Positions 5,883-7,613 are shown, counted from the stretch's first letter. The stretch: DNA of 64,000 nt from Candidatus Thorarchaeota archaeon (GCA_029855935.1 JAGSHN010000012.1:208869-272868), one strand, 5' to 3'. Program-made: numbers and translations. Notes: a model not told the origin generated them from the sequence alone.

Positions 5883-5927
5883 TGGCAACGTTCTTTAGAA
5901 CCGGCTGAGCGACCTCTGTCAGAAGAG

Positions 5928-7613
5928 GTGACAGTGGTGCCTGTGCCCGCCCCGGAGGACGAGTTCTCCATTCATTGGATTGAGGATGTCGTCAGTAAGG
6001 TCCTCAAGCGCAATGTGGGCGACTACCTGATGTCTGCTGGCAAGAGTCCGAGCGGCAGCATTCACATCGGTATCATGCGAGAGCTGATAATCTCTGACGT
6101 GATAAAGCGAAGACTGCGGGACATGGGTCGACGGGCACGGACAATGTTCATAGTCGACGACTACGACCCCGTGAGATCTTTCCCTCCAGGTGTTTCGCTC
6201 TCACTGGAGGAGTGGGTCGGAATACCGTATTCTGACGTGCCAGACGAGTTTGGCTGCTGTGAGAGCTATGGGGCGCACTGGGCGAACGAGCTGATTGAGG
6301 CCTTCCCCGACTTTGGCATCGACCCCGAGATAGTATGGACCTCCAAGCTGTATGAGACCCCCGAGATGCTTGAGGAGGTCCGAACGTGTCTGAGGCATAC
6401 AGAGACCATTCGTGAGATAATGATTGAGTACGTGGCACGGGACTTCAGTCCCCAACAGCGTGTCCAGTACGTCGAGTCGATGAAGACATGGTATCCTGCG
6501 TCTGTGGTCTGCCCCAATTGTGGTCGTCTTCAGGCGGGTGCCAAGGGGTCCATATTGCCGAACCGGGTGCTGGACTACAATGTCGAAACGGACCAGATCA
6601 CATTCAAGTGCCACTATTGCGGGCTCAAGGACACGCGTCGTCTGACTGACATCCGTATCAAGCTGACTTGGCGTGTTGACTGGCCCGCGAAGTGGCATTT
6701 GTTCAGGGTCACCTGTGAGCCTGCAGGCAAGGACCACGCAGTCAAGGGCGGGTCGTACGACACGGGCCTTGAGATATCACGTCGCGTATTCGGCTGGGAG
6801 GGCCCCGTCAAGGTCCCATACGAGTGGGTACAGATTGGGGGCCGCGATATGACCACGTCAGAGGGAATCGTGTTCACGCCTAGGGCATGGCTAGACATAG
6901 CCCCTGCAGAGCTCTACAGGTTTCAAATGCTCAAGACCGACCTCCAACGTACAATCAACATTCAGCCGGAGAGAATTCCCGACTCTGTCGATCAGTACGA
7001 CAAGTTTGAGCGTGTCTACTACGGTCTTGAGGAGGCGGACGAGGCGCGGCGCCAGTTGGCGAGACTGTTGTATCCATTGGCTGAGGCTCATCAGGTGCGT
7101 TCAGAGTACGTCCCGAAGCTTCCCTTCAAGTTCGCTGTCGTGATCTCGCAGCTGGAGGAGCTATTGGGACGGGACACGGTCATTGAGCGTTGTGTCACTG
7201 CAATCAAGAAGCGATTCTCATTGGGCACCATTCCGGATGAGGCATATCGGGTCATAGAGAAGCGTCTGGTCATGGCGCGCAACTGGGTCCGACAGTATGG
7301 TACCGATCGGGACCGTGTTGAGGTGTCTGACCACGTCCCTGAAGAGATTCGGAAGACCATCACCGAACAGGACCGGGCCTTTCTCTCCAGACTGCTCCAC
7401 ACACTGCGGAGCGGCCCACTCACTGATGACGAACTTCAGGGCGCGATCTTCTCTGCAGCGCGTGAAACAGGTCTGAAGGAACGCAGGGCCTTCACGGTGA
7501 TGTATCGAATACTGATATCTCGGAAGTCTGGACCGCGTCTTGGGCCGTTCATCAACCTCCTTGGTGCTGACTGGGTGGCCGACAGGATTGAGAGCGTACT
7601 TGTAGGGCCATAG
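5928..7613 (+). CDS. class I lysyl-tRNA synthetase homolog with degenerate HIGH/KMSKS motifs
   Basis: Collinear with archaeal LysK: SPSGSIHIGIMREL (HIGH region), DDYDP, Zn-knuckles CPNCG…CHYCG, WRVDWPAKW, EPAGKDH, and GRDMTTSEG at the KMSKS position. Confidence 0.7.
   Translation: MTVVPVPAPEDEFSIHWIEDVVSKVLKRNVGDYLMSAGKSPSGSIHIGIMRELIISDVIKRRLRDMGRRARTMFIVDDYDPVRSFPPGVSLSLEEWVGIPYSDVPDEFGCCESYGAHWANELIEAFPDFGIDPEIVWTSKLYETPEMLEEVRTCLRHTETIREIMIEYVARDFSPQQRVQYVESMKTWYPASVVCPNCGRLQAGAKGSILPNRVLDYNVETDQITFKCHYCGLKDTRRLTDIRIKLTWRVDWPAKWHLFRVTCEPAGKDHAVKGGSYDTGLEISRRVFGWEGPVKVPYEWVQIGGRDMTTSEGIVFTPRAWLDIAPAELYRFQMLKTDLQRTINIQPERIPDSVDQYDKFERVYYGLEEADEARRQLARLLYPLAEAHQVRSEYVPKLPFKFAVVISQLEELLGRDTVIERCVTAIKKRFSLGTIPDEAYRVIEKRLVMARNWVRQYGTDRDRVEVSDHVPEEIRKTITEQDRAFLSRLLHTLRSGPLTDDELQGAIFSAARETGLKERRAFTVMYRILISRKSGPRLGPFINLLGADWVADRIESVLVGP

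What the first reader, a model, noticed from the sequence alone, without database searches (positions are those of the whole stretch)
5928..7613. Class I LysRS homolog with both catalytic signature motifs degenerate
The protein is collinear with archaeal class I lysyl-tRNA synthetase (GxTPSGxxHIG…, DDYDP, Zn knuckles, WRVDWPxxW, EPxGKDH). The HIGH-region reads HIGI (normally HIGN/HVGN in LysK). The KMSKS-position loop reads DMTTSEG instead of KMS(S/K)SKG, with both lysines replaced by acidic or neutral residues. Loss of the KMSKS lysines normally abolishes amino-acid activation. The protein may therefore be a non-catalytic paralog (tRNA-binding or regulatory). Alternatively, it is an enzyme with an unusual mechanism, or the organism's only LysRS with a compensating change.
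Basis: partly seen in the sequence, partly recalled or inferred. Interest (0 to 1): 0.55.

Follow-up and report, generated by a model that had tools for sequence, protein, structure and literature searches.

The report
Ordinary Asgard-type class I lysyl-tRNA synthetase
This gene is the organism's only lysyl-tRNA synthetase, and its odd-looking catalytic loop is the normal form in its archaeal lineage rather than a sign of a dead enzyme.

Summary
ORF 5928-7613(+) encodes a 561-aa class I LysRS (TIGR00467 418.7 bits, cut-off 147.55). It reads HIGI at the HIGH position and DMTTSEG where P. horikoshii LysRS-I (1IRX) has KMSGSKG.

The leading interpretation, a non-catalytic paralog, is not supported. 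This is the only LysRS of either class in a 97.3%-complete Thorarchaeota genome. In its family, 0 of 86 genomes carry a class II LysRS, and 23 of 23 high-quality genomes carry one copy of this class I gene.

The loop [RH][DA]MxTSxG is kept in 121 of 121 close homologs, and it is more conserved than the protein average. P0001 keeps 38 of the 39 columns that are at least 85% conserved in other LysK subfamilies. Non-synonymous differences are 0.16-0.27 per site, against saturated synonymous sites.

The premise is also weak. Only 43 of 141 LysK cluster representatives carry both loop lysines, and 39 carry neither. The latter group includes the Methanococcus cluster representative P0135; M. maripaludis and M. 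vannielii (added rows) read PMSSSSG and PMSSSAG.

Verdict: an ordinary housekeeping enzyme of an Asgard-type LysK subfamily. Two clade-specific invariant lysines (K39, K273) are untested candidates for compensation. In a sister genus, the HIGH histidine is lost as well.

The parts
5928..7613 (+). lysK: class I lysyl-tRNA synthetase gene, 561 aa from the first GTG. The likely real start is GTG 5937, giving 558 aa.
   Evidence: ORF. TIGR00467 418.7 bits and PF01921 3e-97. 1IRX E 5e-71. 558-aa database copy P0002.
5925..5931 (+). Shine-Dalgarno-like GAGGTGA, 5 nt upstream of GTG 5937
   Evidence: Read from the sequence. Inference only.
5973..7055 (+). Catalytic Rossmann-fold domain with the Zn-binding insertion (residues 16-376)
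   Evidence: PF01921 stretch 16-376. Model pLDDT is mostly above 90.
6039..6083 (+). P-loop and HIGH region, G38-K39-S-P-S-G-S-I-H46-I-G48-I49-M-R-E52. K39 (6042-6044) is a clade-specific invariant lysine at the end of strand beta-1. HIGI lies at 6063-6074.
   Evidence: K39 is K in 121/121 close homologs and 33/142 across the family. H46 is H in 138/142 rows across the family. Strand E32-39.
6510..6620 (+). Zn-knuckle cysteines C195, C198, C228 and C231
   Evidence: Invariant in alignment A1. Nearly invariant in A2.
6669..6746 (+). WRVDWPAKW ... EPAGKDH-AV-K273: conserved active-site block. It ends in the clade-specific lysine K273 (6744-6746).
   Evidence: W248, K268 and H270 are 121/121; K273 is 121/121 in close homologs. 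K273 is K in 7/8 DM-clade representatives and 14% of the others.
6834..6875 (+). KMSKS-equivalent mobile loop I303-GGR306-D307-M-T-T-S311-E312-G313-IVF. DMTTSEG lies at 6846-6866.
   Evidence: Aligned to KMSGSKG of 1IRX. In 121 homologs: R306 is R 108 / H 13; D307 is D 117 / A 4; M308, T310, S311 and G313 are invariant.
7341..7598 (+). C-terminal alpha-helical anticodon-binding domain (residues 472-557)
   Evidence: PF19269 E 8.5e-07. Aligned to the 1IRX C-terminus. Helices H472-558.

Best explanation
The gene is the housekeeping, catalytically active class I lysyl-tRNA synthetase (LysK) of a Thorarchaeota (Asgard) archaeon, and it is that organism's only LysRS. It belongs to a well-supported 'Asgard-type' LysK subfamily. 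In this subfamily the mobile KMSKS-equivalent loop reads [RH][DA]-M-x-T-[SH]-x-G and HIGH position 4 is hydrophobic.

Shown: it is the sole copy; it is orthologous across the family; the whole protein and this loop are under strong constraint; nearly all family-wide conserved residues are retained; and the two loop lysines are not conserved in LysK at large.

Inferred: the enzyme activates lysine and charges tRNA-Lys(UUU/CUU) in the usual two steps. The conserved M-x-x-S-x-G loop scaffold still closes over ATP. The charge normally supplied by loop lysines is either dispensable or supplied by other basic residues. It may be dispensable because, from recall, class I LysRS needs tRNA for activation, as ArgRS, GluRS and GlnRS do. 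The candidate substitutes are R306 next to the loop Met and the clade-invariant K39 and K273.
For: Sole LysRS in this genome. The own genome is 97.3% complete. It has one PF01921 hit and no class II LysRS over the cut-off. Its two class II hits are AspRS(ND) and AsnRS. tblastn with 3 Asgard class II LysRS and 6 diverse LysK (plus P0001 itself) finds only AspRS, AsnRS and this gene.

Sole LysRS in relatives. In the family, class II LysRS is found in 0 of 86 genomes. LysK is found in 74 of 86 genomes and in 23 of 23 high-quality genomes; 73 carry one match and G042 (7% contamination) two, one of them a partial copy at a contig end. In 189 Asgard genomes at least 90% complete, 171 have class I and 8 have class II. 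Six have class II only, two have both and 12 have neither.

Substrate present. tRNA-Lys UUU and CUU are both in the genome.

Constraint. In 121 homologs of at least 60% identity, the loop's mean top-residue frequency is 0.883 against 0.751 for the whole protein. M308, T310, S311 and G313 are invariant, and D307 is D in 117 of 121. pN is 0.16-0.27 against pS 0.75-0.94, which is saturated. P0001 keeps 38 of the 39 columns that are at least 85% conserved in 134 non-clade representatives. E52, W248, K268, H270, E299 and R331 are 121/121.

Labile lysines in the family. K1 is K in 90/142 representatives and the SKG position is K in 55/142. Neither is K in 39/141. There is no Lys within 14 residues of the loop in 12/141, and 7 of those lie outside this clade. 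On the tree these states change at least 14 and at least 35 times. The M. maripaludis C6 and M. vannielii LysRS read GDKAMPMSSS[SA]G.

Fold. The model has pLDDT 93.9 and 1IRX is the top match with TM 0.80/0.88.
Against: No biochemical data exist for any member of this subfamily, so activity is inferred from necessity.

The loop of this protein has no Lys at all. M. maripaludis still has a Lys four residues before the loop Met, so it is not a perfect precedent.

The residue before D307 is not consistently basic across the wider clade: it is R, Q, K, N, Y or V. This weakens R306 as a general substitute.

K39 also occurs in bacterial-type LysK that keep KMSSSKG, so it is not specifically compensatory.

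The genome is a MAG, with 2.7% unassembled and 2.8% contamination. Of 189 fairly complete Asgard genomes, 12 show no LysRS at all. This shows that LysRS genes can be missed in such assemblies.

The model returns no coordinates, so distances from K39, K273 and R306 to the ATP site were not measured.
Confidence: 0.88

Rival explanations
1. Non-catalytic pseudo-synthetase: a LysK paralog that has lost activation chemistry and acts as a tRNA-binding or regulatory protein.
For: D replaces K before the loop Met and E replaces the SKG Lys. HIGH position 4 is Ile. In a sister genus even the HIGH His is lost.
Against: There is no other LysRS of either class in this genome, and no class II LysRS in any of 86 family genomes; the class I gene is single copy apart from one extra partial match in G042. 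P0001 keeps 38 of 39 family-conserved columns. The loop is more conserved than the rest of the protein. K-less loops are common in sole-copy LysK of other lineages.
Confidence: 0.03
2. A specialised second LysRS: the true housekeeping LysRS lies in unassembled DNA or is of an unrecognised type, and this enzyme serves a side function.
For: Of 189 Asgard genomes at least 90% complete, 12 show neither LysRS class. One of them is G032, at 99% completeness.
Against: Those 12 are scattered within genera whose other members have LysK; for example, 80 of 89 f9 genomes have it. This fits assembly gaps. It would require the same gene to be missed in all 86 family genomes, including 1- to 10-contig assemblies such as G003 and G041.
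Confidence: 0.04
3. Changed specificity: the enzyme charges a different amino acid or a different tRNA.
For: There are clade-specific substitutions near the active site: I49, K273, D307 and T310.
Against: E52, W248, H270 and Y298 sit, by the offsets of the alignment, at the positions I recall as lysine-binding in 1IRX (E41, W218, H240, Y268; recalled, not checked). All four are retained in P0001; in the 121 homologs, position 298 is F in 71 and Y in 50. The anticodon-binding domain is retained. The genome uses Lys codons normally, for example 24 AAG in this gene, and has no other enzyme to charge tRNA-Lys.
Confidence: 0.03

Closest known systems
Pyrococcus horikoshii class I LysRS (PDB 1IRX)
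   Same: Collinear over the full length (query 15-554 against chain 2-519, E 5e-71). The predicted fold matches (TM 0.80/0.88). The Zn cysteines, WRVDWP, EPxGKDH, YE[WF] and the C-terminal helical anticodon-binding domain are all shared.
   Different: 1IRX has HVGN and KMSGSKG; this protein has HIGI and DMTTSEG. This protein lacks the 2-residue 'KG' before the Met. It carries K39 where 1IRX has Ile, and K273 where 1IRX has Ala. Identity is about 28%.
Methanococcus maripaludis / M. vannielii LysRS (P0308, P0304). From recall, the M. maripaludis enzyme is the first biochemically characterised class I LysRS (Ibba et al., Science 1997; not seen here).
   Same: It passes the same equivalog model (TIGR00467 683.6 bits). 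It lacks Lys at both aligned loop positions, reading PMSSSSG or PMSSSAG. In the control genome M. jannaschii, class I rings and class II does not (controls).
   Different: It belongs to a different subfamily on the tree. It keeps HIGN and has a 4-residue insertion that carries a Lys (GDKAMP) upstream of the Met. It has no K39 or K273.
Arginyl-tRNA synthetases that lack the KMSKS lysine (recalled: 'MSTR'-type loop, with a compensating Lys just upstream of HIGH; Sekine et al. 2001; no paper on this found)
   Same: Both are class I enzymes that, from recall, need tRNA for activation. Both have a Lys-less M-S-T-like loop and a conserved Lys near the P-loop or HIGH region. This is a working analogy for K39.
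   Different: It is a different family. The ArgRS Lys is recalled to sit about 3 residues before the His, whereas K39 sits 7 before it. Compensation is untested here.
True pseudo-synthetase modules, e.g. the C-terminal pseudo-monomer of trypanosomatid TyrRS with KMSKS replaced by ARAVL (PMC8319005, passage read)
   Same: The KMSKS lysines are lost.
   Different: There the dead module coexists with an active one, and the whole motif is erased. Here no active partner exists, and the M-x-x-S-x-G core of the loop is invariant.

Membership tests
Class I lysyl-tRNA synthetase (LysK; TIGR00467 / PF01921) | Scores above the curated cut-offs of the family models over the full length | tested here: met
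   TIGR00467 418.7 bits against 147.55, positions 1-513 of 515. PF01921 326.1 bits against 27.
Class I lysyl-tRNA synthetase (LysK; TIGR00467 / PF01921) | Fold and domain order of the solved LysRS-I: Rossmann fold with Zn-binding insertion, then a helical anticodon-binding domain | tested here: met
   1IRX E 5e-71 over 540 residues. Model pLDDT 93.9, with 1IRX the top match at TM 0.80/0.88. PF19269 at 472-557. C195, C198, C228 and C231 present.
Class I lysyl-tRNA synthetase (LysK; TIGR00467 / PF01921) | HIGH signature: His at position 1 and Gly at position 3 | tested here: met
   H46 and G48 are present. H is found in 138/142 representative rows. Position 4 is Ile, but that column is variable family-wide: N 75, S 17, H 14, A 9, R 8, I 7 and others.
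Class I lysyl-tRNA synthetase (LysK; TIGR00467 / PF01921) | KMSKS-type loop with its lysines (K-M-S-x-S-K-G) | tested here: not met
   The loop reads D-M-T-T-S-E-G. However, the lysines do not define this family: both are present in only 43/141 representatives and neither in 39/141. The loop core, which is what is conserved (M 121/142, S311 134/142, G313 130/142), is present.
Class I lysyl-tRNA synthetase (LysK; TIGR00467 / PF01921) | Family-wide conserved active-site residues (WRxDWP, ExxGKDH, YEW, E52, R331) | tested here: met
   P0001 keeps 38 of 39 columns that are at least 85% conserved in 134 non-clade representatives; the only change is P107 to E. That E52, W248, H270 and Y298 are the lysine-binding residues is recalled from the 1IRX paper and was not checked.
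Class I lysyl-tRNA synthetase (LysK; TIGR00467 / PF01921) | Forms Lys-tRNA-Lys | not testable with these tools
   Inferred from its being the only LysRS and from the presence of tRNA-Lys genes.
Non-catalytic aaRS paralog (pseudo-synthetase) | Coexists with a canonical synthetase for the same amino acid | tested here: not met
   No second class I LysRS and no class II LysRS in the own genome. No class II LysRS in 86 family genomes; the class I gene is single copy there apart from one extra partial match in G042.
Non-catalytic aaRS paralog (pseudo-synthetase) | Relaxed constraint on active-site residues | tested here: not met
   Loop conservation is 0.883 against 0.751 for the whole protein. 38/39 conserved columns are kept. 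pN is far below pS.

The most novel reading that the evidence does not exclude
The Asgard-type LysK subfamily may have rewired transition-state stabilisation. On this reading, the positive charges normally carried by the mobile KMSKS loop and by HIGH position 4 have moved to two fixed, clade-invariant lysines. K39 sits at the end of strand beta-1, before the P-loop. K273 sits just after GKDH. R or H at position 306 may assist. This rewiring would then have allowed one Thorarchaeial genus (g3) to lose even the HIGH histidine and glycine, reading PISF. That would make its sole LysRS a class I synthetase that works without either class-defining signature motif.
Probability: 0.3. Interest if true: 0.6.

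Novelty: new member of a known kind. Interest (0 to 1): 0.25.

Why it matters
For annotation, the result is reassuring: this is a normal essential translation enzyme, correctly named lysine--tRNA ligase in public records of its relatives. It should not be flagged as a pseudoenzyme.

More generally, the data show that the textbook KMSKS lysines are poor predictors of activity within class I LysRS. Only about a third of LysK cluster representatives have both. Motif-based 'dead enzyme' calls in this family are therefore unsafe.

The modest scientific interest lies in how the lysine-free subfamilies stabilise the transition state. This applies most to the genus whose sole LysRS also lacks the HIGH histidine. 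The question is directly testable with a few mutants.

Tried and rejected
Expression evidence: the look-up of sequencing runs listed no RNA holder.

dN/dS: synonymous sites are saturated even within the genus (pS 0.75-0.94), so no numeric ratio is given, only pN against pS.

Structure-based distances: structure prediction returns no coordinates. Whether K39, K273 or R306 can reach the ATP phosphates could therefore not be measured. Complex prediction was not used, because it scores protein partners, not ligands.

Covariation of K39 with loss of the loop Lys: K39 appears in three places on the tree. These are the bacterial-type clade with canonical KMSSSKG, the Asgard-type clade, and P0207. That is too few independent events to test, and the bacterial-type case argues against a simple rule.

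G032: this 99%-complete genome has no LysRS of either class. I considered it a hint of an unknown LysRS type and rejected that as the likelier reading, because 80 of 89 genomes of its family have LysK.

Literature: seven searches found no paper in the held library that describes lysine-less KMSKS loops in class I LysRS or the Asgard LysK motif. I read passages only of PMC11580382, PMC5919687, PMC7916415, PMC8319005, PMC8879553 and PMC2933860. PMC15151 (Ibba 1999) is not held. The original LysRS-I papers (Ibba 1997, Terada 2002) and the ArgRS paper (Sekine 2001) were not seen and are cited from recall.

Earlier scan notes: look-ups by words and by sequence found nothing.

Full report
1. What is there

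The ORF at 5928..7613(+) is real and encodes 561 aa from its first GTG. It matches the class I LysRS catalytic domain: PF01921, E 3e-97, residues 16-376. It also matches the GluRS/LysRS-type anticodon-binding domain PF19269 at residues 472-557. It passes NCBI's archaeal LysRS equivalog model at 418.7 bits against a cut-off of 147.55.

It aligns end to end with the only solved class I LysRS, P. horikoshii 1IRX, at E 5e-71. An AlphaFold2 model built on a 71-sequence alignment has mean pLDDT 93.9 and pTM 0.90. Its best PDB match is 1IRX (TM 0.80/0.88), followed at a distance by GluRS structures.

They are GKSPSGSIHIG, with HIGI at 46-49; DDYDP at 77-81; four Zn cysteines; WRVDWPAKW; EPAGKDH; and DMTTSEG at 307-313. 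The 1IRX alignment puts KMSGSKG opposite DMTTSEG. No other KMSKS-like peptide exists in the protein.

The start is probably GTG 5937. Three observations point that way. The public copy is 558 aa, GAGGTGA lies at 5925-5931, and residues 1-14 are disordered in the model.

The neighbouring genes are an FtsX/MacB-type permease, a CDP-alcohol phosphatidyltransferase, a PfkB kinase and a PadR regulator. None has an evident functional link to the synthetase.

2. Organism and copy number

The closest public proteins, at 60-77% identity, are named lysine--tRNA ligase of Candidatus Thorarchaeota MAGs. The window's genome is 97.3% complete and 2.97 Mb.

It has exactly one PF01921 match, which is this gene. 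It has no class II LysRS: the best TIGR00499 score is 126 bits against a cut-off of 427.6. The two class II hits are the non-discriminating AspRS and AsnRS. tblastn of the whole genome with three class II LysRS from other Asgard genomes and six diverse LysK (plus P0001 itself) finds only those two genes and this one. Both tRNA-Lys isoacceptors are present, UUU and CUU, the latter with an intron.

The family shows the same pattern. Class II LysRS is found in 0 of 86 genomes. LysK is found in 74 of 86 genomes, and in 23 of 23 genomes that are at least 90% complete and at most 5% contaminated. Of the 74, 73 carry one match; G042 (7% contamination) carries two, one of them a partial copy at a contig end. 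The one same-genus genome without a hit is 74% complete and holds fragments of the gene at contig ends.

Across 189 Asgard genomes at least 90% complete, 171 have class I and 8 have class II. Six have class II only, two have both and 12 have neither. So the two classes mostly replace each other, and Thorarchaeia rely on class I.

3. Is the odd loop a lineage trait under selection?

It is. All 121 homologs of at least 60% identity read [RH][DA]-M-x-T-S-x-G. The detailed counts come:
- R306 is R in 108 and H in 13.
- D307 is D in 117 and A in 4.
- M308, T310, S311 and G313 are invariant.
- E312 is E in 80, K in 20 and R in 11.
- The loop's mean top-residue frequency is 0.883, against 0.751 for the whole protein.

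Within and between genera, non-synonymous differences are 0.16-0.27 per site, while synonymous sites are saturated at 0.75-0.94.

Of the 39 alignment columns that are at least 85% conserved among 134 LysK representatives outside this clade, P0001 keeps 38. The exception is P107 to E. E52, W248, K268, H270, E299 and R331 are invariant in the 121 homologs. By the offsets of the alignment, E52, W248, H270 and Y298 correspond to E41, W218, H240 and Y268 of 1IRX. I recall these as the lysine-binding residues, but this is recalled and not checked. Position 298 is F in 71 and Y in 50 of the 121 homologs.

4. Are the lysines really a hallmark of LysK?

They are not. I took the 142 full-length sequences among the 150 best cluster representatives (50% identity clusters) and tabulated the loop:
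- The residue before the loop Met is K in 90, A in 18, D in 16, P in 6 and E in 6.
- The 'SKG' residue is K in 55.
- Both are K in 43 of 141; neither is K in 39 of 141.
- Twelve of 141 have no Lys anywhere within 14 residues of the loop. Seven of these lie outside this clade and carry Thermoplasmatota, Aciduliprofundum and Berkelbacteria labels.

On a FastTree tree of 148 LysK, the two states change at least 14 and at least 35 times. HIGH position 4 is N in only 75 of 142.

The M. maripaludis C6 cluster representative and the M. vannielii LysRS read ...GDKAMPMSSS[SA]G. That is Pro and Ser/Ala at the two positions in question. Methanocaldococcus species read PMSSSKG. In the control genome M. 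jannaschii, class I rings and class II does not (controls). From recall, the M. maripaludis enzyme is the one in which class I LysRS activity was first shown.

5. Where it sits in the family

The tree gives a 10-row clade with support 100. It holds the Thorarchaeota sequences, Odinarchaeota-labelled P0122 with L014, L036, Hodarchaeota-labelled P0123, Promethearchaeota-labelled P0124, P0126, P0128, and one Bathyarchaeota-labelled sequence P0125 (names).

All of these share K39 (G-K-[ST]-x-S-G) and an x-[DA]-M-x-T-[SH]-x-G loop. Clade-specific fixed residues include I49, K273, D307 and T310. K39 and K273 are 121/121 in the close homologs.

A second supported clade reads G-[DE]-M-[GT]-[SA]-S. It includes Vulcanisaeta-labelled sequences and other Asgard families.

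6. Mechanism

Shown: this is the only LysRS, it is constrained, and it has a complete LysRS-I architecture. Inferred: it is active.

The most economical view is that the conserved part of the loop, M-x-x-S-x-G, does the conserved job, and that loop lysines are dispensable in this family. That is plausible because class I LysRS needs tRNA to activate lysine (recalled). The same holds for ArgRS, GluRS and GlnRS, whose KMSKS motifs are also degenerate (recalled).

A bolder view is that K39, K273 and R/H306 supply the charge. K39 sits at the end of strand beta-1 (E32-39). I recall that residues in the segment just upstream of the HIGH His (Thr40 and His45) contact the gamma-phosphate in TyrRS. I also recall that a Lys near HIGH compensates in ArgRS.

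Two observations argue against a simple rule. K39 also occurs in bacterial-type LysK with canonical KMSSSKG. The residue before D307 is not always basic in the wider clade.

7. Noticed on the way

In genus g3 of the same family, 11 of 13 recovered LysK genes read PIS, PIG or GIG where HIG should be, on top of RDMSTSEG. The same holds for 21 of the 121 database homologs. These genomes still have one LysK and no class II enzyme. One such protein scores 398.8 bits on TIGR00467. This is more surprising than the finding itself, because His is present in 138 of 142 representative rows.

8. Verdict

The 'dead paralog' reading is rejected. The 'only LysRS of the organism' reading is supported.

It is an ordinary member of a lineage-specific LysK subfamily. 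I found no paper describing these loop variants in the searches, but the library lacks most subscription papers. The earlier scan note on this window (e1-1519850, SelD) independently calls the genome an Asgard (Thorarchaeia-like) archaeon. That agrees with the names.

Noticed in passing
L040-L050 (genus g3 genomes G086, G083, G093, G087, G085, G089, G006, G021, G092, G079, G088); proteins P0051-P0115 listed: In a sister genus of the same family, the sole LysK reads PISF, PIGF or GIGF in place of HIGH, so the histidine and often the glycine are lost. This comes on top of the lysine-less RDMSTSEG loop. It holds for 11 of 13 genes recovered and 21 of 121 database homologs. No class II LysRS is present in these genomes. 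A similar 'VPISG' occurs independently in a bacterial-type representative, P0257.
   Followed up: partly
window 6042-6044 (K39) and 6744-6746 (K273): Two lysines are invariant in 121/121 close homologs and nearly fixed in the Asgard-type clade. Elsewhere they are uncommon: K273 is K in 14% of other representatives, and K39 occurs in 25 of 134 (mostly bacterial-type, plus P0207). They are candidates for compensating the lost loop lysines.
   Followed up: partly
window 5925-5939: The ORF's first GTG (5928) overlaps an SD-like GAGGTGA. The public identical protein starts three codons later, at GTG 5937, giving 558 aa.
   Followed up: partly
G032 and 11 other Asgard genomes (G062, G105, G117, G149, G155, G161, G175, G186, G204, G209, G213): In these genomes, all at least 90% complete, no LysRS of either class was detected (for G032). 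Assembly gaps are the likely cause, because most genomes of the same families have LysK.
   Followed up: partly
G162 and G207 (family f9): These two Asgard genomes hold both a class I and a class II LysRS. Their contamination is 5% and 8%, so it is unclear whether this is real co-occurrence or a binning artefact.
   Followed up: no
window 6246-6248 (E107): This is the only family-wide conserved column that P0001 does not keep. Pro, found in 92% of other LysK in the PDPxGC motif, is Glu here. Within the 121 close homologs it is E in 83 and P in 32.
   Followed up: no
I did not examine it.
   Followed up: no
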